From assembly GCA_041946855.1 (NCBI GenBank), contig JBHGBE010000009.1, forward strand, positions 7,838 through 71,837: a stretch of DNA of 64,000 bases, read 5' to 3'. The position numbers were made by a program, and so were the translations under genes. A model generated the notes under the pieces. It made no database searches. It had not been told where the DNA came from and saw nothing but the letters and a program-made list of their open reading frames with translations. Numbering within the stretch: the first letter of the stretch is position 1; every line of letters begins with the position of its first letter. This document shows positions 24,846 through 55,634 of this stretch, piece by piece. This stretch comes from Phycisphaerae bacterium (lineage in GTDB: Bacteria; Planctomycetota; Phycisphaerae; SM23-33).

Positions 24846-27049
24846 TGCCTTCCTCGTTCGCCCAGGACAAGATAGTAAAAGTAGAAATAGGTGTCGTGGA
24901 ATTCCTTCCACATCTTGTCTTTCAAGTCTTTCATCCGGTCGGCCGACTCCTTCTCGCGCCGCTGGTCCTCGGCGATGGAGGCCTCCAGTTCCGCCTGGCG
25001 CTGGCGGTTGCCGGCCTGCGTCGCGACGCGCAGCGATTCCCGCTTGAGCACGGCGGCCTTGGCGGCCCCATCCTTCTGGTCCCGGATTCTCTGATATTCC
25101 ATCATCATGGGCGTGAACGCCTCGAACCGCTTCCGGGTCTCGGGGCGGATGCTCTTGCCGGGGACCTGAACGGCCTGGCCGGTCATGTCCTGGTAGATCA
25201 GCATCGCCTCCTCGTAGTGCCGCGGTATGTCGGGGTACCTGAACCGCTGAGCGTTGACCCAGTACTCCTCGTTCAGGCGCGAGGGCCGGCCCGGCCTGTC
25301 CACGAGGTTCGCGCAGACGTCCTTCACTCTGCCCTCGAGCAGGCAGAAGGCCATCATGTACTCGAACGCCATCTTGTTGTGGGGGTTGACTCGCAGGCAC
25401 GCGGCGTAGACAACGGCCGTGCCCGCAAGGTTGGCGTGGTAGACCAGGCCCGGGTAGTCCTTGTCCTCGCCCGACGCGAGGGCGCGGTATCTCGTGATCT
25501 CCTCGTCGGGCGGGGAGTCGGGGTCTTCGTCGATCCGCTGGAGCCAGGCCCTTGCCCATGCGCCGTACTCGGCGTGGGCGCTGAGGACGTTCAGGAAAAT
25601 GCGCGCGGAGCCGTAGTCCCTCTTGATGATCTTGATCTTCGCCAGCCGGCTCATCGTGGGGCCCTGATAGCCCAGCCCCGCGAACGCCTCCGCCTCGTTT
25701 ACCCTTCCCATGGCCAGCAGCAGGTCCGCGATGTGGCAGTTCGAGTGCCAGTCGGGCACCTCCATCACGCCGGCCAGCAACTGGTATTCCTGCGGGTAGG
25801 AGAACATGTCGTACGCCAGGCGGCCCTTCTCGAACAAGGCGCGGTTCACGTCCATGTTCATGGCGAAGGTGTAGGACGATTTGGGCACATCTGGCGCCTC
25901 GCGGAGGATGTCATCCCACCGGCTGTTCGTGAACCAGTAGTCTATCTTCACCTCCCGCTTCAGCTCCCTGTTGACGGTCAGGTGCGCTACGCCGGCCGCG
26001 ACGCCCAGGAGCACCGTCATCTGCACCACGGCCATCAGGATCGTCCTGCCCGCGGGGGGGGGCCGGAGGGCGGGCTTTTCGCCGCCGGAATCGTGCGCGG
26101 ACGCGCGAGCGTCGCCAGCCGGCGAGTTGCCGGTCCTGGAGATGAGCTTAGCCGCCTGTTCCTTCAGCTTTCCCATGAACGGGACAAGGGCGGCGCAGAC
26201 CGGTATGTAGAAGTACAGCAGGCCCACGCCCCAGTTGATCCAGGCGTTGGAGTGCTTGAGGAAAGGCATCAATCTCGCCCGGAGCGCATCCCATCCGCCC
26301 GCGCTGCTCAGGACGGTCCATCGCGCGCCGAAGGCGTCCATCGCGGGCCATCGCCATCCCGATTCCGCGGACGCCGCCAGCAGCACTTCGATGATCGCCG
26401 CCGCCAGGACGGCCGCCGGTATGCACGCCGCCCCCGCCGCCCATCGCCTGGCGGTGGCCATCTCGAAGACGGCGCAGGTGACAGCGAAGAGGAAGCACGC
26501 CCCGGCGGCAAGGTAGTAGACCACCAGCGCCATCGCGGCGAAGACGGCGATGCGAAGGGCCGAGTTGCGGATGGGCGTCCACGCGTATGCGGCCGCCGCG
26601 GCCATCGCTATGATAATGCCGATGACGGGCGCGCCGTAGAAGTCGTACTGGCCGTACAGCGCCATCAGGAGCAGTCCGGGGGCCACCCATGCCCCGGGCG
26701 CGGGGCCGCGAGCGGCGGCCCTCATAACGGCGGCCGTCAGGAGCAGGAAAACGCCGATAACGGCGGCGTTGGCGGCCGGCCCGCCCCACTCGGACCGGTT
26801 GACCTGGCAGATGTACCGGGAACACCAGTCCGCCACGTCGCCCGGGGCCCTGACGAACTCCTTGAAGGTCCGCCAGGTGGGCGCGAAGACCGCGCTCTCG
26901 TATACCTGGTGGTCGTAGATGAGCCTGGTATCGACCAGCGAATGGAACAGCAGGACCAGGAAGGCCAGAAACACAGCGACGCGCAAGAAGAACAGGGCCG
27001 ACGGCATCGGCCGCCGCCCCGCGCTGTTGGGCCTCTGTGAACCAGGCAT
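24842..27049 (-). CDS. DUF6057-like multi-pass membrane protein with a TPR-like C-terminus
   Basis: Many TM segments, NPHNKMAFEYMMA and IPRHYEEAML; the usual partner of the PD40 gene. Confidence 0.7.
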   Translation of the reverse strand: MPGSQRPNSAGRRPMPSALFFLRVAVFLAFLVLLFHSLVDTRLIYDHQVYESAVFAPTWRTFKEFVRAPGDVADWCSRYICQVNRSEWGGPAANAAVIGVFLLLTAAVMRAAARGPAPGAWVAPGLLLMALYGQYDFYGAPVIGIIIAMAAAAAYAWTPIRNSALRIAVFAAMALVVYYLAAGACFLFAVTCAVFEMATARRWAAGAACIPAAVLAAAIIEVLLAASAESGWRWPAMDAFGARWTVLSSAGGWDALRARLMPFLKHSNAWINWGVGLLYFYIPVCAALVPFMGKLKEQAAKLISRTGNSPAGDARASAHDSGGEKPALRPPPAGRTILMAVVQMTVLLGVAAGVAHLTVNRELKREVKIDYWFTNSRWDDILREAPDVPKSSYTFAMNMDVNRALFEKGRLAYDMFSYPQEYQLLAGVMEVPDWHSNCHIADLLLAMGRVNEAEAFAGLGYQGPTMSRLAKIKIIKRDYGSARIFLNVLSAHAEYGAWARAWLQRIDEDPDSPPDEEITRYRALASGEDKDYPGLVYHANLAGTAVVYAACLRVNPHNKMAFEYMMAFCLLEGRVKDVCANLVDRPGRPSRLNEEYWVNAQRFRYPDIPRHYEEAMLIYQDMTGQAVQVPGKSIRPETRKRFEAFTPMMMEYQRIRDQKDGAAKAAVLKRESLRVATQAGNRQRQAELEASIAEDQRREKESADRMKDLKDKMWKEFHDTYFYFYYLVLGERGRQ

Positions 27050-32663: not shown

Positions 32664-32855
32664 AGGGATACACGTGATACAAGGGATGACAGGGATTCAA
32701 GCCAATGCCACGATGGAAGCCCTGGCGGCATTACGAGTCCGCTTGATAGGCTGCTTTCGCTCCTCGCGAGGTCTCTGCCGGCCAAGCGGCGCGCCGAAGG
32801 TTTCCGGGCGACGAAGATCATTTCCTCTGAATCCCTTGCATCCCCTTCATCCCTG
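32664..32855. repeat. Inverted arrays of 9-bp tandem repeats
   Basis: GGGATACAC GTGATACAA GGGATGACA GGGATTCA versus TGAATCCCTTGC ATCCCCTTC ATCCCTG; contains the epimerase stop codon. Confidence 0.65.
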
Positions 32856-33809: not shown

Positions 33810-34029
33810 CGTCAGTTCCTTCTGATCGCCAGGGACACACGGTCCGCCCAGGCGTCTGGATGATGTCACACGGCCGACTGGGTATTGTACCCCTGTTCCT
33901 GGGAACGCAACAGGGGCTTCGCGGGCCGACGTGTCGAATTTTGCACTGGTTTGGACATTGCCCGACGGCCGCCCTTAGGGTATGAAGGAACGGTACACTA
34001 TCGCAAAACAGAAAGGGAAAGGACTAGCC

Positions 34030-34584
34030 ATGGTACCGCTCTTAATCGTTCTGGGAGTCATCGTCGTGCTGGCGCTGTTCGTGGTGGGGATCTACAACGG
34101 CCTGGTTCAGAAGCGCATCCGCACGCAGGAGGCATGGAGCCAGATCGACGTGCAGCTAAAGCGTAGGTACGACCTGATCCCCAACCTGGTGGAGACGGTC
34201 AAGGGCTACGCCGCGCACGAGCGCGGCACGCTGGAGGCGGTCATCCAGGCCCGCAACGGCGCGATGGCCGCGCAGGGCGTGGCCGCCAAGGCGGAGGCGG
34301 AGAACATGCTGACCGGGGCGCTGCGGCAGCTCTTCGCCGTGGCCGAGGCATACCCGAACCTGAAGGCCAACGAGAACTTCGCCCAGCTCCAGGAGGAGCT
34401 GACCGGCACCGAGAACCGCATCTCCTTCGCCCGCCAGCACTACAACGACACGGTGGCGATCTACAACACGGCCCGCCAGGTCTTCCCAAACAACATCATC
34501 GCCGGCATGTTCAACTTCGCGGCGGCGGAGTTCTTCGAGATCCCGGAAGCGGCGCAGAAGGAGGCGCCGAAGGTGAAGTTCTAA
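34030..34584 (+). CDS. lemA: LemA family protein
   Basis: YNGLV..WSQIDVQLKRRYDLIPNLVETVKGY..EAYPNLKANENF. Confidence 0.95.
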   Translation: MVPLLIVLGVIVVLALFVVGIYNGLVQKRIRTQEAWSQIDVQLKRRYDLIPNLVETVKGYAAHERGTLEAVIQARNGAMAAQGVAAKAEAENMLTGALRQLFAVAEAYPNLKANENFAQLQEELTGTENRISFARQHYNDTVAIYNTARQVFPNNIIAGMFNFAAAEFFEIPEAAQKEAPKVKF

Positions 34585-34593
34585 CTGCCACGG

Positions 34594-35146
34594 CAATATT
34601 CAATATTCAACACTCAAGCTCAATGCTCAAGTGAACGGCAATAGCGGACAAGGCAAGACAGGCTTTGCGGACATTGCCCGGACGGGGCATGTGCCCCGAA
34701 GGCGTGAATACGACCTTGAGCAGAGGCTGATCAACTTCGCGATCATGATCATCGAGATCGTCGAACGCCTGCCAGATACGCGTGTGGGAAACCACATAGC
34801 TGGCCAGTTGCTGCGCTGCGGCACCAGCCCAGCCGCCAACTACGGCGAAGCCGAGGCGGCCGAATCACGCGAGGACTTCGTACACAAGATCAAGGTCGTG
34901 CTCAAGGAGTTGAAGGAGTCGCGAGTGTGGCTGACCATCATTGACAGGAAGAAGATGGTGACGCCTCCACAGATCGTGAAGGATGCTCTCGTGGAATGCG
35001 GTGAACTGGCGGCAATCTTCTCAACGAGCGTCGCAACGGCAAGACGCAATCTCGAGCGCAAGTGACACTGGCACCAGGCTCCTGCATCGTTGAGCCTTGG
35101 GCTTCCACTTGAGCATTGAACATTGAGTGTTGAATATTGAATATTG
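34594..35146. mobile_element. Cassette bounded by ~42-bp heptamer-array inverted repeats, carrying a four-helix-bundle gene
   Basis: CAATATTCAATATTCAACACTCAAGCTCAATGCTCAAGTG (34594-34633) is near-perfectly complementary to 35105-35146; the cassette separates lemA from htpX. Mobility is inferred. Confidence 0.6.
34631..35065 (+). CDS. Four-helix-bundle protein (23S rRNA IVP/TIGR02436-like)
   Basis: DLEQRLINFA..QLLRCGTSPAANYGEA..SREDFVHK..LKELKES..WL. Confidence 0.9.
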   Translation: MNGNSGQGKTGFADIARTGHVPRRREYDLEQRLINFAIMIIEIVERLPDTRVGNHIAGQLLRCGTSPAANYGEAEAAESREDFVHKIKVVLKELKESRVWLTIIDRKKMVTPPQIVKDALVECGELAAIFSTSVATARRNLERK

Positions 35147-35172
35147 TCCTTTTTCCGTCAAGTAGGCGGCGC

Positions 35173-36111
35173 ATGTCCACCGAAACCTTCTACACGCTCA
35201 TCTCCCGCAACAAGCGCAATAGCTGGATTTTGATTATTGTCTTCACGCTCTTCTTCATCGGCCTGGGCCTGTTGATCGGGGCCGTCTGGGGCGGCGGGCA
35301 GGCCGCGTTCAGCATCACCGTGGCCGTCGTCGCGGCCGTGATCGCGTTCATCATCACGCTGGCCAGCTACTACGGCGGCCCGTCGCTGCTCCTGAGCATG
35401 TCGCGGGCCCGTGAGATCACGCACGACGACGACCCGCAGCTCTTCAACGTCGTCGAGGAGCTGAGCATCGCGGGCGGGATGCCGATGCCGCGCGTCTTCA
35501 TCATAGACGAGCCTGCCATGAACGCCTTCGCCACCGGGCGCAACCCGCAAAACGCGGCCGTCGCCATCACCAGCGGCCTGCGGACGCGGCTGAAGCGTGA
35601 TGAGCTTCAGGGCGTGATGGCCCACGAGCTCTCGCACGTGCGGAACTACGATATCCTCTTCTCGATGCTCGTGGCCGTCATGGTCGGCGTGATCGTGATG
35701 ATGTGCGACGTGTTCCTGCGGAGCATGTGGTGGGGCGGTGGCCGGCGGAGCCGCAGCCGCGAACGCGAGGGAGGCGGAGGCGGGATTCAGATCATATTCA
35801 TGGTCGTGGCCCTCGTCCTGGCGATCATCGCGCCGATCCTGGCGAAGGTCATCGAGATGGCTCTGTCGCGGCAGCGCGAGTACATGGCCGACGCCGGCAG
35901 CGTCGAGCTGACCCGCAACCCGCAGGGCCTCATCGGCGCGCTTGAGAAACTGGCCGGCGACCAGGAAGTGCTCCAGGTCGCCAACCGCGCGACGGCCGGG
36001 CTCTACTTCGTCCACCCCATCAAGCGGTTCGAGGGAGGCCAGAGCAGCATGTTCGACAGCCACCCGGCGATCCAGGACCGCATCGCCCGCATCCAGTCGC
36101 TGACGGTGTAG
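35173..36111 (+). CDS. htpX: HtpX-like M48 zinc metalloprotease
   Basis: NAFATG, AHELSH, SRQREYMAD and SHP; LemA neighbour. Confidence 0.88.
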   Translation: MSTETFYTLISRNKRNSWILIIVFTLFFIGLGLLIGAVWGGGQAAFSITVAVVAAVIAFIITLASYYGGPSLLLSMSRAREITHDDDPQLFNVVEELSIAGGMPMPRVFIIDEPAMNAFATGRNPQNAAVAITSGLRTRLKRDELQGVMAHELSHVRNYDILFSMLVAVMVGVIVMMCDVFLRSMWWGGGRRSRSREREGGGGGIQIIFMVVALVLAIIAPILAKVIEMALSRQREYMADAGSVELTRNPQGLIGALEKLAGDQEVLQVANRATAGLYFVHPIKRFEGGQSSMFDSHPAIQDRIARIQSLTV

Positions 36112-36158
36112 GGCTCGCGTTCCGCAACTGGCCACTGCTTCGGGCCGATATCAGGGAA

Positions 36159-36917
36159 ATGCACGACTCGCATTGGGAGGCCGTCGGTTTCCTCTGCCGG
36201 TGGTGCCTGCTGGCGCTGGCGTGTACGGCCATCGCGGCCGTGTTGTGGGTCAGCGCGGCCGGGGCAGTCGCCGGGCGAGGGGACCAAACCAAGTTGACCT
36301 TCCCCGATCGCATCAAGCCGCCTGAGGGAGTGCCGATATGCGGGCTGCTGCGACCAAGCAATGGCGGGGGTTCGCAGGGCGACTTCATCGTCGCGCCGCC
36401 CGGCGGCGAGGCGAAGGCCGCCATCACCGGGGACAGCGAGGTGTGGATCCTAGTTGACCAGGCGCGCGCCGGCGGGAATCGGTTCATTGTGAAGGGCTCG
36501 CCCTACGGTCCGACGGCCATGATCTCGCAGGAGGCCAAGGTCATCGGCATCGGCGAGGGCGCGGAACTATTCGCGATCGATGCACGGATTCCGCTGCGCG
36601 GGTCCGGGCCGCAGCGCGAGGGGCTCTCGCGGCGCATCGATGCGCTCCGCGGGCTGGGTACGGTGGTCTTCTTCGACGGCGACGATGTGACACAGTACGC
36701 GCGCGACCGGGCGGCCCTGGCGGCCATGGGCTTGGACATTCCCATCATCGGCCGTCCCTGCGACAAGTCCGATTGGCCGGCGGTTCTGTGTGAGATTGCC
36801 GGCTCCGTCCGCCAGGCGAAGGGGCGGGTGAAGATCATCACGGCCGACGGCGAACTGGCCCGCGCGGCGGCCGCCGAGGGCCTGGCCGTGGAAGGTTTCA
36901 ACCTCGGCCTGCCATGA
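36159..36917 (+). CDS. Hypothetical membrane-anchored protein
   Basis: ORF with an N-terminal hydrophobic segment that fills the intergenic gap on the operon strand. Confidence 0.5.
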   Translation: MHDSHWEAVGFLCRWCLLALACTAIAAVLWVSAAGAVAGRGDQTKLTFPDRIKPPEGVPICGLLRPSNGGGSQGDFIVAPPGGEAKAAITGDSEVWILVDQARAGGNRFIVKGSPYGPTAMISQEAKVIGIGEGAELFAIDARIPLRGSGPQREGLSRRIDALRGLGTVVFFDGDDVTQYARDRAALAAMGLDIPIIGRPCDKSDWPAVLCEIAGSVRQAKGRVKIITADGELARAAAAEGLAVEGFNLGLP

Positions 36918-36952
36918 GCCATGCGCTGCCCGTCCTTGGTGCATCTGTGAAT

Positions 36953-37051
36953 GTGGCATGGGCGTCTCGCCCGTGCGTCTCGCAGGCGTCTCGCCTGCGG
37001 AAACAGCGGCCGGGACGGCCGCGAGACGCGCGGGCCAGAGGCCCACGCCAC
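36953..37051. repeat. REP-like element, family copy 2 (inverted relative to 29519)
   Basis: GTGGCATGGGCGTCTCGCCCG...AGACGCGCGGGCCAGAGGCCCACGCCAC. Confidence 0.75.
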
Positions 37052-37151
37052 ATACCGTAGATGCCCCGCGATCCAGACAGTCGAAAGAACCGCCTGCCGC
37101 ACGGCCGATAAACACCCAGGATGGGCCATCCCTGACCCAAGAGGACAGTTG

Positions 37152-37823
37152 ATGCGCCGAAGTCTCGCCCTGACATGCCTTGCCGCGACGCTCTTGGCGC
37201 CCGCACTGGCGGGGTGCGGACACTCGAGCTCGAGGATGGGCACCATCATCCCGGCGCCACCGTACACGGCCGGCCCAAGCCACGCCAATGATGGCAACGT
37301 CGTGCGGCCCGACCCGCCCGCCGGCGATCCGTGGGCCGTGCCCCCATCCGTCGAGGGCCGCGCGTGGCGGTACATCGTCGTCCACCACAGCGCGACCGAC
37401 CACGGCAGCGCCGCCACCATCGACGCCGCGCACAAGGCCCGCGGCTGGCAGGGGCTGGGCTACGACTTCGTCATCGACAACGGCAACGGCGGCCCCGACG
37501 GGCGCGTGGAGGTCGGCCCCCGCTGGCGCCAGCAGAGCGTCGGCGCCCACACCGGCGGCACGCCCGGCAACGCCTACAACGAGCACGGCATCGGCATCTG
37601 CCTGATCGGCAACTTCACCAAGCGCACGCCCTCGGCCGCCCAGCTCGCCTCGCTCAACCGGCTGGTTTCATACCTGGCGGCCAAGTACAGCATCTCCGTG
37701 GGGAACATCATCGGCCATCGCGACGCCCCCAACGCCCACACGGAATGCCCGGGCGACCTGCTCTGGTCCTACGTCCACGGCCAGCTTCGCGCCAACGTCG
37801 CCAGGCAGGTCGCGTGGAGGTAG
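37152..37823 (+). CDS. N-acetylmuramoyl-L-alanine amidase (Amidase_2/PGRP-like), lipoprotein
   Basis: LAGC lipobox; IVVHHSA, GYDFVI, GAH, IGICLIGNF, GHRD and TECPG. Confidence 0.9.
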   Translation: MRRSLALTCLAATLLAPALAGCGHSSSRMGTIIPAPPYTAGPSHANDGNVVRPDPPAGDPWAVPPSVEGRAWRYIVVHHSATDHGSAATIDAAHKARGWQGLGYDFVIDNGNGGPDGRVEVGPRWRQQSVGAHTGGTPGNAYNEHGIGICLIGNFTKRTPSAAQLASLNRLVSYLAAKYSISVGNIIGHRDAPNAHTECPGDLLWSYVHGQLRANVARQVAWR

Positions 37824-37916
37824 CGTAACGGCATTACCTCTTCCGTTACCGCGGGCCGGCATTATCGGGTATAATGCCTGCCAATCACGGACGATCATCC
37901 GTTGCCGGAGTGTGCC

Positions 37917-38627
37917 ATGGAAACGGCCAGAAGACGCCGCCGAAGACGACCTCCCCGCGTCCGGCCCGCAAGGCGGCGGATGCGCTCCCGCGTCAGGAGA
38001 ACCGCGCACTACGCGTGGCGGCGGTGGGTCCGCCGGCAGAAGCGCAAGCCCGTGCCGCTGATCTGCCTGGCGGCCGCGCTGGTCCTGGCGCCGATCGTCG
38101 TGGTCGCGGCCGTCAGGTTCGCCGAAACCGCCACGGCCCCTGTCCCATCGCCGCCGCCTGGCCGTGTGTGGCGGCACATCGTCATCCACCACTCGGCCAG
38201 CGACGGGGGCAACGCCGAGACCTTCGACGCCATGCACAAGGCCCGCGGCTGGCAGGGGCTCGGCTACCATTTCGTCATCGACAACGGCAACGGCGGCCCC
38301 GACGGCAACCTGGAGATCGGCTGGCGCTGGGAGCAGCAGGCGGCCGGGGCCCACACCGGCGGTACTCCGCACGGCGAGTACAACGCGCACGGCATAGGTA
38401 TCTGTCTCGTCGGCAACTTCGTGAAGCACTCCCCGTCGCCGGCGCAGCTTGCGGAGCTGAACCGCCTGGTCGATGAGCTTGTGCGGCGGTACCGCATACC
38501 GCCCGAGCGCATCATCGGCCATCGCGACGCCCCCAACGCCAAGACCGAATGCCCCGGGGACATGCTCTGGGCCTACGTCCACGGCCCGCTTCGCGACAGG
38601 ATTGCCGGAGAGTATGCCGGGCAGTAG
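37917..38627 (+). CDS. Second Amidase_2 paralogue with an Arg-rich N-terminus and TM anchor
   Basis: IVIHHSA, GYHFVI, GHRD and TECPG. Confidence 0.88.
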   Translation: METARRRRRRRPPRVRPARRRMRSRVRRTAHYAWRRWVRRQKRKPVPLICLAAALVLAPIVVVAAVRFAETATAPVPSPPPGRVWRHIVIHHSASDGGNAETFDAMHKARGWQGLGYHFVIDNGNGGPDGNLEIGWRWEQQAAGAHTGGTPHGEYNAHGIGICLVGNFVKHSPSPAQLAELNRLVDELVRRYRIPPERIIGHRDAPNAKTECPGDMLWAYVHGPLRDRIAGEYAGQ

Positions 38628-38661: not shown

Positions 38662-39148
38662 TTGGCCGTGAGTTTCACGGGCGTCCGCCCGGCCGTCATC
38701 GTGGTGATGCTCATGCTCATGGCGTGGTCGATCATCTTCCTGACGGCCACCGGCCGGTACTTCAGCGCCCGCCTGAGGAAGGCGGTGACGGCCGTGCTGA
38801 TGAACTTCGCCCTGGGCGTAGCGCTGTGGGGCCTCGTGCCGCTGCTATTGGGCGCAGCGATGGAGATCGCCGGCAAGTACCAGCACGGGGCCCGTGGAGA
38901 CGGTCCTGTGCGCCAACCCGGTCGTGCAGGCGATCGCCATCGCCGATGGCAACAGGCGCAGGATCAGTCAGTATGCCGCCGACTTCTCATGGGTCCCCAC
39001 AGACCAAGCGCCGTTTGCCTGGCCGACGGGGCCGATGAGCCTGGCGGACACGTTCATGATCATGTTCGTCAGCATGTTCGCTTACTGCACGGTGTCGGGC
39101 CTGTTCCTGGGCCGGGCGAAACGGCTGCTCCGGCGAAACCTGTCTTGA
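38662..39148 (+). pseudogene. Frameshifted C-terminal fragment of an ABC-2-type permease-like membrane protein
   Basis: TM segments continue across a frame change near 38890 (GKYQHG to ETVLCANPVVQ); no N-terminus. Confidence 0.5.
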
Positions 39149-39212
39149 TTGCGGATTGTGGATTTCCGTGCAGACGACGATTGCGGGAATTCGCATTCCG
39201 CAATCCGCAATT
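39147..39212. repeat. Heptamer-array hairpin (GATTGCG type)
   Basis: GATTGCG GATTGTG GATT ... AATTCGC ATTCCGC AATCCGC AAT. Confidence 0.7.
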
Positions 39213-40175: not shown

Positions 40176-40207
40176 GATTGTAGATTGCAGATTGCAGATT
40201 GTAGATT
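40176..40207 (+). repeat. Solo heptamer array (GATTGYA, 4.5 copies)
   Basis: GATTGTA GATTGCA GATTGCA GATTGTA GATT between the nadC and DUF433 stop codons. Confidence 0.75.
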
Positions 40208-40426
40208 TCAGAGAGTTGAGCAGTTCTTCCGTTCCGTCAAAGCAGTTGCGTAGCGCAGGGAGGCTTGGAGGTCCTCGCGGGTCAGGGAGGGATATTCCTT
40301 CAGCAGGTCCTCCACGGTGTCGCCGTTGGCGAGCATCTTGACGATCTGGTGAACGGGGATTCTCGTTCCCTTCACGCACGCCTGGCCGTGGCAGATGGCT
40401 GGATCTATGCTTATTCGCGGGAACAT
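40208..40426 (-). CDS. DUF433 protein (putative antitoxin)
   Basis: RISIDPAICHGQACVKGTRIPV..LLKEYPSLTREDL. Confidence 0.85.
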   Translation of the reverse strand: MFPRISIDPAICHGQACVKGTRIPVHQIVKMLANGDTVEDLLKEYPSLTREDLQASLRYATALTERKNCSTL

Positions 40427-41581: not shown

Positions 41582-41613
41582 ACGCGGATGTTATCCCCGC
41601 CGGCGTGCGCTGA

Positions 41614-41673
41614 AAATAGGGACGCACCCCATTTTCCAGGCAAACGGCGGGAAAATAGGGTGCGTCCCTATTT
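41614..41673. repeat. Long inverted repeat/hairpin ending the MoxR operon
   Basis: AAATAGGGACGCACCC ... GGGTGCGTCCCTATTT; includes the stop codon of the HEAT gene. Confidence 0.7.
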
Positions 41674-44088
41674 ATCGGGCACCGCGGGCGTAATGCTGAT
41701 ACGCATGCCCTTGGGGTCCACAAGGCGCACGCGGAACTGGTAGTAAGAGTAGTTGTTGAGGGCCTTGACCACCAGGCGGTTGGCGCCCTTCTGGAGCGTC
41801 ACGTCGATCTTCGTCTCCTGGTGCTGCGGGAGGTCCTTGAGCTTCTGGCCGTTGAGCCACACCATGCACGAGACGGATGTCGAGAAGGACAGGACGGCCT
41901 TCTCCGGGAAGTTCTCGGGCGGGACCTGGAAGTCGGCCACCGCGTAGGAGACGCTGTTTGCGGGCGGGGACACGAAGCCGCCGTCGAGGTGTACCATGCC
42001 GTCCACGGTGTTGACCCTCAGCGGCGTCCAGGCGAGTTGGGGGCTCTTCTTGCCCGGGATGACGATGCGAGCCGAGGACGACGCGGCCAGCTCCAGCAGG
42101 TCCAGCTTCTTTTCGCCGGCCGTTATGACGGGCGAGCCCACGAAGGCCGCGCCGGAGGAAGCGTTCTTGGCCGCGCCGGCCTGGAGCTCCAGCGTGACGC
42201 TGCGCCCGGCCCACGCCGACAGGTCGATCTCGACGGCGTCCCAGGCGCTGGACTTGTCGAGTTGCCGCGAAAGGAGCGACTTGCCGTCGAGGACCACCTC
42301 AAAGGGCGTCCCCGGCTGGGCGCCTTCCCGCAGGGCAAGCGCCATCGCGAGCTTGACGTCCTTGCCCGCGGGGACCTCAAGCGCGTACACCGCCGATGTG
42401 CGGCTGTTGGGCAGCTCATCCTGGCTGGGGGCGACGATCAGGAGCGCCTTCTTCGCGGCCCCGCCCGCGGTGGCATCGGCGACGCTGACGGCCGCGCCGG
42501 CGCTGAGCGTGTCGTAGGTCTTCTTGAAGTCGATTTCCTTCTCAGGCGTGTACTCGACGGCCAGGCCCTTGTTGTCGCGGTCGGGGCCGTAGGGGCCGAG
42601 GGTCATCCAGTCGGTGATGTACGCCTCGGCGGCGGCCACGCGGCGCTTGGTGTCGTCGTCGGTGTGCTTGTCCAGCGCGGCGGCGGCCGCATCCCGCAGC
42701 GAGTCGTTTGCCCCGCCGAGGAACTTGTCCAGCGCCGCCAAAGCGCCGTTCGTCTCGGCGGCGGTGACGCGGTCCTTGAGCAGGCCGATCGCCGCCCCGG
42801 CGACGCCGGTGTCCGCGTGGTCAAGGGCCTTGGCCAGGTACTTGACGATGCCTTCCTTCGGCGCGCCGGTGGTGACCTTGGACAGCGAGGTCAGGGCCTG
42901 AAGCGCGACGTAGCGATTCGGGTCCGCGATGGTCTGGCGGAACAGCTCGAAATGGTCCGCCTTGGGGCAGCGGGCCAGGCCTTCAACCGCGTGGATGCGG
43001 ACCCGGCCGTCGGGATCCTTGTGGGTGAGATAGAGCGCGAAGGTCGACTGATACCGCGGCGCATCGAAGGTGTAGAGCAACTGCATGGCCGCGGGGAGAG
43101 CCTGGTCGTAGGCCGCGTTGGGCGTGGCGAGGATGGCGGCGACGTTGTCACAGACCTCGGCCGACGGGTGCGCGCCCAGCAGCTCAACGGCCGGCACATA
43201 CAGGGCCGTGTTGGTTGACTTCAGCGCCAGGCCGAGCGGCCCGGCGAGCGTCTTGCCGTCGAAGCACGCGAGGCTGCGCTTGCAGGCGGCCTTGGTCTCC
43301 GCGTCGGCGTCGGTCGCGTGATGGGCCAGCAGGGCCGGGATGGCCCCGGCGTCGAGCAGCCTGCCGATTGCGGCGGCGGCCTCGATGCGGACGGCCGGCT
43401 CCTTATGGTCGAGCAGTTCGATCAGGCTCCTGCGGGCCTGGTCGTTGGCCACATACACCAGGGCCTTTGCCGCGTGGCGAACCATGTCCGTGTCGGCGGA
43501 CTTGAGCTGTGCGGCCACGGTCGGGTACGCGGAGGCCTTCTTGAGGCGGGCGTACGCCACCAGCGCCTGGCACTGGACGGCCGGCGACTGGTCCTTGAGC
43601 CGTTCGAGGATCGCGCCCTCCGAGCCGGCGTCGCCGATGATGCCCAGGGCCTCCACGGCCGCCGCACGCAGCTCGGGAACCGCGCCCTTGGCGTGGGCCA
43701 GCGCATCCTGGAGCACGTCGGTCTTCTGGATCTCGGCCAGGGCCACCAGCGCCCTTCCCCGCGACCACGCGTTGCCGCCGCCAGTCAGGATGGCCTTGAG
43801 CGGCGCGATCGCCTCCTTGGACCCGGCCGCCGAGAGTTGCTTCATCGCGTGAAGCTGGATGATCCAGTCCTTGGAATTCAGGTCCTCAAGCGCCTGCTGG
43901 ATGTCGATGGGGGCGGACTTGTCCTGGGCGAGGAGCGGAGACGCCAGAATCAATGCTGCCGCCGCTCCCAGAACGATGCGGCACAGCCTTGGATTGGGGT
44001 CGAACGTCCGGTCATGGTATCCGGACTTGTGGATACTGACACCGAACTCAGGAGAGCCAGAAACCGACCTGTAAGGAGCCATCGTCAT
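41668..44088 (-). CDS. Exported HEAT-repeat protein with C-terminal beta-sandwich domains
   Basis: Repeated LRAAAVEALG/VRIEAAAAIG units; ITDWMTLGPY; VWLNG..GANRLVVK. Confidence 0.8.
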   Translation of the reverse strand: MTMAPYRSVSGSPEFGVSIHKSGYHDRTFDPNPRLCRIVLGAAAALILASPLLAQDKSAPIDIQQALEDLNSKDWIIQLHAMKQLSAAGSKEAIAPLKAILTGGGNAWSRGRALVALAEIQKTDVLQDALAHAKGAVPELRAAAVEALGIIGDAGSEGAILERLKDQSPAVQCQALVAYARLKKASAYPTVAAQLKSADTDMVRHAAKALVYVANDQARRSLIELLDHKEPAVRIEAAAAIGRLLDAGAIPALLAHHATDADAETKAACKRSLACFDGKTLAGPLGLALKSTNTALYVPAVELLGAHPSAEVCDNVAAILATPNAAYDQALPAAMQLLYTFDAPRYQSTFALYLTHKDPDGRVRIHAVEGLARCPKADHFELFRQTIADPNRYVALQALTSLSKVTTGAPKEGIVKYLAKALDHADTGVAGAAIGLLKDRVTAAETNGALAALDKFLGGANDSLRDAAAAALDKHTDDDTKRRVAAAEAYITDWMTLGPYGPDRDNKGLAVEYTPEKEIDFKKTYDTLSAGAAVSVADATAGGAAKKALLIVAPSQDELPNSRTSAVYALEVPAGKDVKLAMALALREGAQPGTPFEVVLDGKSLLSRQLDKSSAWDAVEIDLSAWAGRSVTLELQAGAAKNASSGAAFVGSPVITAGEKKLDLLELAASSSARIVIPGKKSPQLAWTPLRVNTVDGMVHLDGGFVSPPANSVSYAVADFQVPPENFPEKAVLSFSTSVSCMVWLNGQKLKDLPQHQETKIDVTLQKGANRLVVKALNNYSYYQFRVRLVDPKGMRISITPAVPDK

Positions 44089-44203
44089 GTGAGAGACTCA
44101 ATATCGAATATCAAACACGGAATATCGAATATCGAACGCAAAGCATCGCCAATGTTCTCACTTCGACATTCGATATTGCTTGTTCGATATTCGTGATTTC
44201 CTT
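44086..44203. repeat. Heptamer-array hairpin (AATATCG type), copy 1
   Basis: AATATCG arrays on the left arm and CGATATT arrays on the right arm. Confidence 0.85.
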
Positions 44204-49062: not shown

Positions 49063-49183
49063 GTCAGAGAACTCAATATCGAATAGCCAACAGCGAATAT
49101 CGAATATCGAAGTAACGACGACACAGGCGACGATCTCTCACTTCGCTATTCGATATTTCCTGTTCGATATTCGTGATTTCCTT
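49060..49183. repeat. Heptamer-array hairpin (AATATCG type), copy 2
   Basis: Near-identical to 44086-44203, including both flanks. Confidence 0.85.
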
Positions 49184-51720: not shown

Positions 51721-51830
51721 AAGGCAAAATGCGGAACGCAAAAGGCAAAAGGCAAATCGCCGGAGGGCCTGTATGGCATTCTGCCCTCTGCATTCTGCAT
51801 TCTGCCTTCTGCTTCCTGCATTTTGCCTTT
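51721..51830. repeat. Heptamer-array hairpin (AAGGCAA/GCATTCT type)
   Basis: Five left units AAGGCAA AATGCGG.. and eight right units GCATTCT GCCCTCT.. Confidence 0.8.
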
Positions 51831-54091: not shown

Positions 54092-54203
54092 AAGGAAATA
54101 TCGAATATCGAACAGGGAATATCGAATATCGAAGTGGAAGACGCGTCCATGGCAACGACCGTTCACTTCGTCATTCGTTATTGTTTGTTCGATATTCGTT
54201 ATT
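54092..54203. repeat. Heptamer-array hairpin (AATATCG type), copy 3, opposite orientation
   Basis: AAGGAAAT..CGAATATCGAACA is on the + strand here but on the - strand in copies 1 and 2. Confidence 0.85.
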
Positions 54204-55505: not shown

Positions 55506-55634
55506 CGTTACTTCGTTGCCTCGTTACTTCGTTAATTCGTTACCTCGTTCCTTCGTTGCCTCGTTGGTCCGTCGCTTCGTGGCGGGACGTTCGGTCACGC
55601 TCACGAAGTAACGAATCAACGAATACGAATTACG
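55506..55634. repeat. Octamer-array hairpin (CGTTNNYT type)
   Basis: CGTTACTT CGTTGCCT CGTTACTT CGTTAATT.. (7.5 units) versus ACGAAGTA ACGAATCA ACGAAT.. Confidence 0.8.

What the first reader, a model, noticed from the sequence alone, without database searches (positions are those of the whole stretch)
34594..35146. Four-helix-bundle gene inside a heptamer-array inverted repeat: the loaded form of a window-wide hairpin family
Seen: a ~42-bp near-perfect inverted repeat made of CAATATT-like heptamers brackets one TIGR02436-like gene and splits lemA from htpX. Arrays of the same architecture (7-, 8- or 9-mer units) recur without cargo at 32664, 39147, 44086, 49060, 51721, 54092 and 55506, and as a solo arm at 40176. 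Known: this protein family occurs in excised 23S rRNA intervening sequences and shares a fold with the DGR accessory protein Avd. Inference: loaded and empty cassettes belong to one system that inserts at cistron junctions and may be excised from or processed in mRNA, with the protein as an RNA chaperone or mobility factor. No transposase is present in the window.
Basis: partly seen in the sequence, partly recalled or inferred. Interest (0 to 1): 0.85.

Follow-up and report, generated by a model that had tools for sequence, protein, structure and literature searches.

The report
Gene-carrying heptamer hairpin: an IVS-type cassette
A small four-helix-bundle gene sits inside a long hairpin made of seven-base repeats between two housekeeping genes, and the same layout surrounds most genes of this family examined here in many bacterial phyla, which suggests one widespread selfish element of the kind so far described in ribosomal RNA genes.

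Summary
Arms 34594-34633 and 35106-35146 match in 39 of 41 aligned columns. They enclose one 144-aa ORF, a TIGR02436/PF05635 protein with the S23p/Avd fold, between lemA and htpX.

The layout is general:
- Four of five testable paralogues in this genome are bracketed in the same way.
- So are 22 of 29 best hits in relatives.
- In 80 loci from many phyla, 68 exceed the 95th percentile of a non-cognate control. Period is 7 in 59 and 8 in 8 of the 67 loci that passed my cut-off.

The window's arms recur at 34 other places in the genome, as short-loop hairpins or single arms. So loaded and empty forms are one family.

Repeat unit and protein diverge together across phyla. Hairpins also sit in frame inside genes such as dnaG, where all 20 relatives lack the insert.

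The closest known thing is the 23S rRNA intervening sequence, whose heptamer stem RNase III cuts in Coxiella. RNA processing here is untested, and stems show no G:U excess.

Verdict: an IVS-type palindromic cassette in an operon. Its generality is apparently undescribed in the library searched.

The parts
33982..34584 (+). lemA, the upstream host gene. Its stop codon lies 9 nt before the left arm.
   Evidence: PF04011 218.5 bits; ORF
34594..34633 (.). Left arm: about six degenerate heptamers (CAATATT type). Its inner end overlaps the GTG start of the ORF.
34631..35065 (+). Four-helix-bundle gene (TIGR02436 / PF05635, S23p family), 144 aa. An in-frame GTG at 34691 is an alternative start. GC3 is 0.74 against 0.91 in both neighbours.
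   Evidence: AF2 model with pLDDT 88.6; Foldseek hits 2rld, 2gsc, 4dwl
35106..35146 (.). Right arm, the reverse complement of the left arm (39 of 41 columns). It ends 26 nt before the htpX ATG.
35173..36111 (+). htpX, the downstream host gene
   Evidence: NF003425 357 bits, PF01435
32664..32854 (.). Array hairpin of another unit family (AGGGATN), loop about 130 nt
39147..39211 (.). Empty hairpin, GATTGCG family
40176..40212 (.). Solo heptamer array (GATTGCA, 5.3 copies); no partner arm found
44100..44198 (.). Empty hairpin, AATATCG family
49075..49178 (.). Empty hairpin, AATATCG family
51721..51829 (.). Empty hairpin, AAGGCAA / GCATTCT units
54097..54203 (.). Empty hairpin, AATATCG family
55506..55623 (.). 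Octamer array (CGTTACYT) with a partial inverted partner. The unit family is the same as the left arm of the four-helix-bundle gene on contig C105.

Best explanation
The feature is an intervening-sequence-type palindromic cassette that has landed in an operon instead of an rRNA gene. It consists of a small gene for a four-helix-bundle protein (S23p/TIGR02436, Avd fold; solved relatives are pentameric rings) enclosed by two inverted arms of about five to six 7-base units. It is the gene-carrying member of a dispersed family whose other members have the same arms around a short loop, or a single arm.

Shown here:
- the anatomy of the cassette;
- that this layout is the rule for this protein family across phyla;
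- that arms and protein are inherited together;
- that genomes with a cassette carry many further arrays of the same unit;
- that such hairpins are insertions, present or absent at orthologous sites and in frame inside dnaG.

Inferred:
- The cassette is transcribed by read-through from the upstream host gene.
- In the transcript the arms pair into a stem of about 40 bp that brings the lemA stop and the htpX start back together. This stem is a substrate for RNase III, as shown experimentally for the heptamer stem of the Coxiella 23S element.
- The pentameric protein recognises its own repeat array, roughly one unit per subunit, and helps the family to spread or persist. The relation would resemble that of a RAYT transposase to its REPIN hairpins, although the protein has no known catalytic domain.
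For: Anatomy.

Generality:
- C29, C168, C104 and C13 are bracketed; C126 is not; C105 runs off its contig.
- 22 of 29 best-per-genome hits in 40 relatives exceed the 99th percentile of random windows.
- Of 80 loci from many phyla, 68 exceed the 95th and 48 the 99th percentile of 320 non-cognate arm pairings.
- Among the 67 loci passing my cut-off, period is 7 in 59 and 8 in 8, and arms have a median of 4.8 units.
- Genomic period-7 arrays peak at 4-5 copies.

One family: the window's arms hit 34 other places. Arms of the other cassettes hit about 31, 17, 8 and 4 places. In two other genomes the cassette's unit array occurs 126 times (control 1) and 28 times (control 3).

Co-inheritance: protein identity against unit distance gives rho = -0.30, and 0 of 500 permutations are as low. 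Clades share a unit class across phyla.

Insertional nature: lemA-htpX spacers in relatives range from 3 nt to 911 nt. They include an empty hairpin, a decayed four-helix-bundle remnant and another cargo. The dnaG insert is missing in all 20 relatives.

Read-through: the upstream neighbour is co-directional in 54 of 67 cassettes, and the arm starts a median of 3 nt after its stop codon.

Not RAYT-driven: 0 of 7 Y1 transposase genes has heptamer arms.

Precedent (Warrier 2016, PMC4990558, passages read): a 28-bp stem with tandem heptamers, RNase III cleavage mapped within it, and a pentameric XCC0516. Fold: 2rld, 2gsc, and Avd including the DGR ribonucleoprotein.
Against: - Stems give no sign of selection at the RNA level. 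G:U-type and A:C-type mismatches are equal: 187 vs 192 in 126 empties and 80 vs 75 in 67 cassettes.
- There are no RNA data.
- The protein has no known catalytic domain.
- I saw no target-site duplication by eye in six two-armed members.
- The six paralogues each carry a different repeat unit and I found no near-identical cassette copies, so recent movement is not shown.
- The largest array families of this genome (GATTGCG, GGAGGAC and AGTGGGG types) have no gene-carrying member in the assembly.
- Across 20 genomes, gene density and array density correlate only weakly: rho 0.35-0.42, p 0.07-0.13, and the genomes are related.
- The window's cassette has the rarer chirality, with a 5' arm richer in C than G. 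In 63 of 67 cassettes the 5' arm is G-rich.
- In Coxiella the protein appears not to be made.
Confidence: 0.6

Rival explanations
1. The arrays are the host's own cis-elements: binding sites for a global regulator, mRNA stabilisers or terminator-like hairpins. They arise in place by replication slippage. The four-helix-bundle gene is an unrelated passenger that tends to land, or to survive, in their loops.
For: Empties far outnumber loaded forms: 262 against 4-5. The largest families have no gene-carrying member. Aklujkar 2009 (PMC2700814, passages read) read paired hepta- and octamer repeats in Geobacter as regulator sites. Rehm 2015 (PMC4692102, passages read) found 70-75 convergent GGGAATC pairs in Xanthomonas that were mostly conserved in position. 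Heptamer copy number varies among Coxiella strains, which fits slippage.
Against: Related proteins carry related units even in different phyla. Random landing in local hairpins would not produce this. Family members share the whole arm of about 40 nt, with its order of unit variants, and not only the unit. Hairpins interrupt conserved domains of DnaG and HypF in frame, and the DnaG insert is missing in all 20 relatives. Four genomes without the gene had 0 hairpins in 328 kb.
Confidence: 0.2
2. The arms are only an expression device of a resident gene and no mobility is involved. The stem lets RNase III cut the small cistron out of the host operon transcript, or insulates it. The dispersed empties are decayed remains or unrelated.
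For: The stem is predicted with z = -7.8. The upstream gene is co-directional in 54 of 67 cassettes. RNase III cuts the equivalent stem in Coxiella.
Against: This does not explain 34 further copies of the same arms without a gene, in-frame copies inside genes, or the tandem-repeat build. G:U mismatches are not in excess.
Confidence: 0.1
3. The hairpins are spread by another enzyme encoded elsewhere, such as a Y1/RAYT transposase or a reverse transcriptase working with the Avd-like protein as in diversity-generating retroelements.
For: The genome has 7 Y1_Tnp hits and 2 RVT_1 hits. The fold matches Avd in its complex with reverse transcriptase.
Against: Of the 7 Y1 genes, 5 are flanked by their own classical REP-like palindromes (inverted-repeat scores 56-87) and none by heptamer arrays. 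Neither reverse-transcriptase hit lies on a contig that carries a four-helix-bundle gene. No template or variable repeat pair was looked for.
Confidence: 0.1

Closest known systems
23S rRNA intervening sequence carrying an S23p ORF (Coxiella burnetii helix 45; also reported for Leptospira)
   Same: The protein family is the same. The gene is enclosed by terminal inverted repeats that form a long stem. Tandem heptamers lie in the 5' part of the stem and their copy number varies. Horizontal acquisition has been proposed (Warrier 2016, PMC4990558, passages read).
   Different: This cassette lies between two protein-coding genes, not in rRNA. None of the 109 four-helix-bundle loci fetched (29 of relatives, 80 from the collection) touched a 23S gene. 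It has dozens of gene-less copies of the same arms in the genome. RNase III cutting is not shown here.
REPIN-RAYT systems
   Same: A single gene is flanked by its own inverted repeat, with many gene-less hairpin doublets of the same repeat in intergenic space. Several independent gene-repeat pairs exist per genome.
   Different: The gene is not a Y1 transposase and has no known catalytic motif. The arms are tandem 7/8-mers rather than a single REP palindrome. The genome's own Y1 genes have different flanks.
Rickettsia palindromic elements
   Same: Short palindromic repeats inserted in frame inside protein-coding genes and translated.
   Different: Here the arms are built of tandem heptamers, and there is a gene-carrying form.
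Dispersed heptamer repeats: GGGAATC in Xanthomonas, GGGGA(C/T)T in Nostoc, paired hepta/octamer sites in Geobacter; cyanobacterial STRR (the last from my own knowledge)
   Same: Tandem 7-mers of about 4-5 units, mostly intergenic, often as convergent pairs.
   Different: Terms naming the protein family ('S23', '23S', 'helix bundle', '0516') gave 0 hits in the Xanthomonas/Nostoc paper, and 'four-helix', 'four helix', 'intervening sequence' and 'S23' gave 0 hits in the Geobacter paper.
Avd, the accessory protein of diversity-generating retroelements
   Same: Same fold: 4dwl with TM 0.79 on the target, and 8ub7. The solved relatives are pentamers.
   Different: There is no adjacent reverse transcriptase. 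Sequence membership is in TIGR02436, not shown for Avd.

Membership tests
TIGR02436 / PF05635 (four helix bundle protein, 23S rRNA intervening sequence protein) | Profile score above the curated cut-off | tested here: met
   71.2 bits against a cut-off of 24; 43.4 bits against 33.8
TIGR02436 / PF05635 | Four-helix-bundle fold like 2rld and 2gsc | tested here: met
   AF2 model with pLDDT 88.6 and four long helices. Foldseek: 2rld E = 3.4e-5 with target TM 0.88; 2gsc target TM 0.84.
TIGR02436 / PF05635 | Conserved Q, N, E and E positions of the family | tested here: met
   Q59, E73 and E96 are invariant and N70 nearly invariant in 20 sequences
TIGR02436 / PF05635 | Homopentameric ring | not tested
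   Both solved relatives have five chains per entry, and XCC0516 is described as a homopentamer. The window's protein was not modelled as an oligomer.
rRNA intervening sequence (IVS) | Inserted in a helix of 23S or 16S rRNA | tested here: not met
   It lies between lemA and htpX. No 23S gene is assembled in this genome.
rRNA intervening sequence (IVS) | Terminal inverted repeats that form a long stem around the insert | tested here: met
rRNA intervening sequence (IVS) | Excision from the transcript by RNase III | not testable with these tools
   No RNA run was listed
REPIN-RAYT-like system | Gene flanked by its own inverted repeat, plus dispersed gene-less copies of that repeat | tested here: met
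REPIN-RAYT-like system | The gene is a Y1 (IS200-like) transposase | tested here: not met
   The gene is TIGR02436. The Y1 genes lie elsewhere and have other flanks.
MITE / transposon pair | Target-site duplication at the ends | tested here: inconclusive
   None seen by eye in six two-armed members. Instead the flanks continue the palindrome by a few bases. No closely related empty site was available.
Diversity-generating retroelement | Adjacent reverse transcriptase with a template and variable repeat | tested here: not met
   The RVT_1 hits lie only on C144 and C123, not on any contig with a four-helix-bundle gene. Template and variable repeats were not searched.

The most novel reading that the evidence does not exclude
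Four-helix-bundle (S23p/TIGR02436) pentamers are the sequence-specific partners of dispersed palindromes built of about five 7-base units, reading roughly one unit per subunit. Together they form a widespread selfish gene-plus-hairpin system in bacteria and some archaea. One mechanism would then explain three things so far treated apart: rRNA intervening sequences, the unexplained heptamer repeats of cyanobacteria, Xanthomonas and Geobacter, and in-frame palindromic inserts in genes. The repeat unit would co-evolve with the protein.
Probability: 0.35. Interest if true: 0.9.

Novelty: new variant of a known kind. Interest (0 to 1): 0.8.

Why it matters
TIGR02436/PF05635 genes are very common and have no known function. 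Tandem heptamer repeats have been reported in several phyla without explanation. rRNA intervening sequences have been an oddity since about 1990.

The results here tie the three together. The gene is nearly always enclosed by inverted heptamer arrays. The arrays have gene-less copies across the genome. Unit and protein diverge together.

This makes an old question testable: what the S23p protein does. The direct experiment is to compare binding of a protein to its own array and to a foreign one.

It also matters for annotation. Dozens of short inserts in essential genes and operon junctions of such genomes are mobile-element scars, not native sequence.

Tried and rejected
RNA evidence. No RNA holder was listed for 33900-36200, so expression and RNA ends could not be examined.

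Reads laid on the locus. Contigs of the likely source run cover the cassette. Two joints skip from arm to arm (34617/34618 to 35106), one with 31 other letters between them, but only 25-27 letters fit on the shorter side. I read these as paralogous empty hairpins with the same arms, not as an empty allele at this site.

Three-frame stop idea. Arms with stop codons in all three frames numbered 20 of 67 (5' arms; 23% expected) and 14 of 67 (3' arms; 11% expected). This is not convincing and I dropped it.

Orientation of the G-rich arm. In 63 of 67 cassettes, and in 93 against 23 of the 126 co-directional empties, the 5' arm is G-rich. I first took this as polarity relative to the gene. For a palindrome the 5' arm is the same on both strands, so this is an intrinsic handedness and says nothing about strand.

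G:U wobble test. It was negative in both sets.

23S context. No 23S gene is present in this genome. None of the 109 four-helix-bundle loci matched the 23S genes of two relatives; only one lemA locus, L021, did. I therefore could not check heptamer arms in an rRNA copy myself and rely on the Coxiella paper.

Dose-response across genomes. It was weak. Samples were 20-160 kb per genome, partly from contigs chosen because they held a hit, and the genomes are related.

Gene context. This rests on a crude GC3-based gene caller of my own (3535 genes). Of the 73 hairpins called 'inside genes', I checked 10 against Pfam and one against relatives. Two of the ten ORFs had no Pfam hit, and one (L233) may be two fused genes.

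Literature. Searches found no paper that links this protein family with dispersed heptamer arrays outside rRNA. 'TIGR02436' gave 0 papers. The supplements of the Geobacter and Xanthomonas papers may list neighbouring genes that bear on this.

Full report
**The locus.** Arms 34594-34633 and 35106-35146 are reverse complements. One search finds a perfect 24-nt block and a perfect 14-nt block, and a gapped alignment gives 39 of 41 identical columns. Both arms have period 7. Between them lies one credible ORF, 34631-35065 on the + strand, 144 aa. It matches TIGR02436 at 71.2 bits (cut-off 24) and PF05635 at 43.4 bits (cut-off 33.8). Upstream is lemA, whose stop lies 9 nt before the arm. Downstream is htpX, whose ATG lies 26 nt after the arm. 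All three genes run the same way. The ORF's third-position G+C is 0.74, against 0.91 in both neighbours. Folded as RNA, the 571-nt stretch pairs the arms over about 40 bp (-247.5 kcal/mol, z = -7.8). A model of the protein (pLDDT 88.6) matches the two solved S23-family structures and the Avd protein of diversity-generating retroelements. Q59, E73 and E96 are invariant in an alignment of 20 family members.

**The other arrays in the window.** They use other repeat units: AATATCG, GATTGCG, AAGGCAA, the octamer CGTTACYT and AGGGATN. They share the architecture of the cassette, not its arm sequence.

**The genome.** The window lies in a 5.2-Mb assembly of 178 contigs. Named records that hold its close protein relatives are Phycisphaerae and other Planctomycetota. 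TRF finds 841 period-7 arrays of at least three copies. After merging there are 1424 arrays and 339 inverted pairs, of which 262 have loops under 80 nt. Period-7 copy number peaks at 4-5 units and then falls sharply, whereas periods 9 and 12 decay steadily.

I placed the 262 empties with a crude gene caller of my own. The counts are 126 between co-directional genes, 20 between convergent genes, 15 between divergent genes, 73 inside called ORFs, 22 far from genes and 6 at contig edges. In the co-directional cases the hairpin starts a median of 6 nt after the upstream stop and ends a median of 17 nt before the next start.

**All paralogues.** The family profile finds six places in the genome. 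Four are bracketed by inverted arrays, each with a different unit: GAGTTNT, CAATATT, GAATGNN and a 9-mer with ATAGGAC. One runs off its contig and shows only the left array. One has no outer bracket but carries an array hairpin inside its own reading frame. That one and the ATAGGAC one also carry the four-helix-bundle suffix domain TIGR04258.

**Loaded and empty forms are one family.** A BLAST of the window's two arms against the genome finds 36 elements. Two of them are the cassette's own arms, which leaves 34 other places. About a dozen have both arms around a 20-45-nt loop or are fused. The rest are single arms. They share the whole arm of about 40 nt with its order of unit variants, not just the unit. 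None of these copies lies inside the window. Arms of the other cassettes also recur, at about 31, 17, 8 and 4 places. The largest array families of the genome have no gene-carrying member in this assembly.

**Generality.** In 40 relatives, 37 of 41 genomes (own genome included) have the gene. For the best hit per genome, 22 of 29 testable loci exceed the 99th percentile of 300 random windows; one locus had too short a flank.

A scan of one genome per species returned 80 loci. They come from Planctomycetota, Acidobacteriota, Chloroflexota, Cyanobacteria, Bacteroidota, Proteobacteria, Clostridia, Lentisphaeria, Gemmatimonadota, Nitrospirae, Elusimicrobia and two archaeal records. Arm scores have a median of 43, against 19 for 320 non-cognate pairings. 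Of the 80, 68 exceed the 95th percentile and 48 the 99th. Sixty-seven pass my cut-off, with period 7 in 59 and period 8 in 8. The inner distance is mostly 350-540 nt, and arms have a median of 4.8 units.

The 5' arm is G-rich in 63 of the 67. Because the element is a palindrome, this is a handedness of the element and not an orientation to the gene. The window's cassette has the rarer handedness. Units are enriched in AGT (35 observed, 11 expected) and AG (60 observed, 37 expected).

The upstream neighbour is co-directional with the gene in 54 of the 67, and the arm starts a median of 3 nt after its stop. In two other genomes the cassette's own unit array is dispersed: 126 matches against 1 for the reversed control, and 28 against 3.

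**Gene and arms travel together.** For 59 period-7 cassettes, protein identity and cyclic unit distance correlate (rho = -0.30; 0 of 500 permutations as low). Pairs at 70% identity or more differ by 1.08 positions on average, against 3.14 at 40-50%. On the protein tree one clade carries AGGCA-type units. Another carries GGGTGT-type units in Gemmatimonadota, Acidobacteriota, Alphaproteobacteria and Cyanobacteria. A third carries AGT-type units in several phyla. Relatives share features by descent, so this shows co-inheritance. It does not show recognition.

**Insertional nature.** The lemA-htpX spacer varies among relatives. It is 3 and 10 nt in two of them and 44 and 66 nt without arrays in two more. 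One relative has a 97-nt empty heptamer hairpin. Several have single arrays. The relative with the closest LemA has 347 nt with arms and a decayed remnant of the gene. Another has 789 nt with heptamer arms around a small zinc-ribbon ORF.

Of the 73 hairpins inside called ORFs, 47 have the same best coding frame on both sides. Pfam places them in the linker of an ABC exporter, within the DnaG catalytic core, within the Sua5 domain of HypF, in a P-type ATPase and in a histidine kinase. All 20 relatives align to DnaG as residues 2-192 plus 232-636 with only a few codons between, so the insert of about 35 aa is specific to this genome.

**Rival mobilisers.** The genome has seven Y1 transposase hits. 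Five are flanked by their own classical palindromes and none by heptamer arrays. Two reverse-transcriptase hits lie on other contigs than any four-helix-bundle gene.

**What is known.** Warrier et al. 2016 (PMC4990558; I read passages) describe the Coxiella 23S element. It is a 428-nt insert with an S23p ORF and terminal inverted repeats that form a 28-bp stem. Two or three tandem heptamers lie before the ORF, and their number varies among strains. RNase III cleaves it in vitro, and the ends were mapped to the middle of the stem. The paper also cites the Xanthomonas protein as a homopentameric ring, and an older idea that the ORF encodes a mobility component. Rehm et al. 2015 (PMC4692102; passages) report dispersed heptamers in Xanthomonas, with 70-75 convergent pairs, and in Nostoc. 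Aklujkar et al. 2009 (PMC2700814; passages) report paired hepta- and octamer repeats in Geobacter. Terms naming the protein family gave no hit in either text. My searches found no paper that makes the link outside rRNA.

**Against the RNA reading.** If the stems were kept by selection on RNA pairing, G:U-type mismatches should outnumber A:C-type ones on the transcribed strand. They do not: 187 vs 192 in empties and 80 vs 75 in cassettes. Complementarity may instead be kept at the DNA level, or the arms may be young. No RNA data exist for this organism. The link between gene count and array density across 20 genomes is weak. Still, the four genomes without the gene had no hairpin in 328 kb.

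**Verdict.** The feature is best filed as an intervening-sequence-type cassette outside rRNA. It belongs to a gene-plus-hairpin system that resembles REPIN-RAYT in layout but has a non-enzymatic, ring-forming partner protein. RNA excision and the protein's role remain inferences.

Noticed in passing
window 41600-41687: A REP-like palindrome (38-nt arms, 82% complementary). The same motif flanks a Y1 (RAYT-like) transposase gene on contig C95 at 25006-25848. A classical REPIN-RAYT system therefore coexists with the heptamer hairpins.
   Followed up: partly
G000 contig C83:1211-3127 (locus L228) and nine further ORFs (L224-L233): Heptamer and octamer hairpins lie in frame inside genes. They split the DnaG catalytic core, sit inside the Sua5 domain of HypF, in an ABC exporter linker, in a P-type ATPase and in a histidine kinase. 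The DnaG insert of about 35 aa is missing in all 20 relatives searched.
   Followed up: partly
G000 contig C126:18800-19760 (L235) and C13:44900-45720 (L234): Two longer paralogues carry the four-helix-bundle suffix domain TIGR04258, and their arrays have period 9. In the C126 gene an array hairpin sits in frame between the bundle and the suffix domain.
   Followed up: partly
L017 (G008), lemA-htpX spacer of 789 nt: Heptamer arms (AGGCAAT type) enclose a small ORF with two CxxC pairs (zinc-ribbon-like) plus REP-like palindromes, in place of a four-helix-bundle gene. So the arms can hold other cargo.
   Followed up: no
L002 (G003), lemA-htpX spacer of 347 nt: The relative with the closest LemA has inverted arrays of a different unit type around a decayed remnant of the four-helix-bundle gene (tblastn 51% over residues 24-64).
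   Followed up: no
window 36951-37823 and 37902-38627: Two adjacent ORFs on the same strand encode similar proteins that share a long conserved block. They look like a tandem duplication. I ran no family search on them.
   Followed up: no
G000, own-genome members of the window's arm family: Some members are arranged right arm then left arm, fused at the palindromic AATATT end. The family therefore exists in two topologies, one of which has the common G-rich-first handedness. This is unexplained.
   Followed up: no
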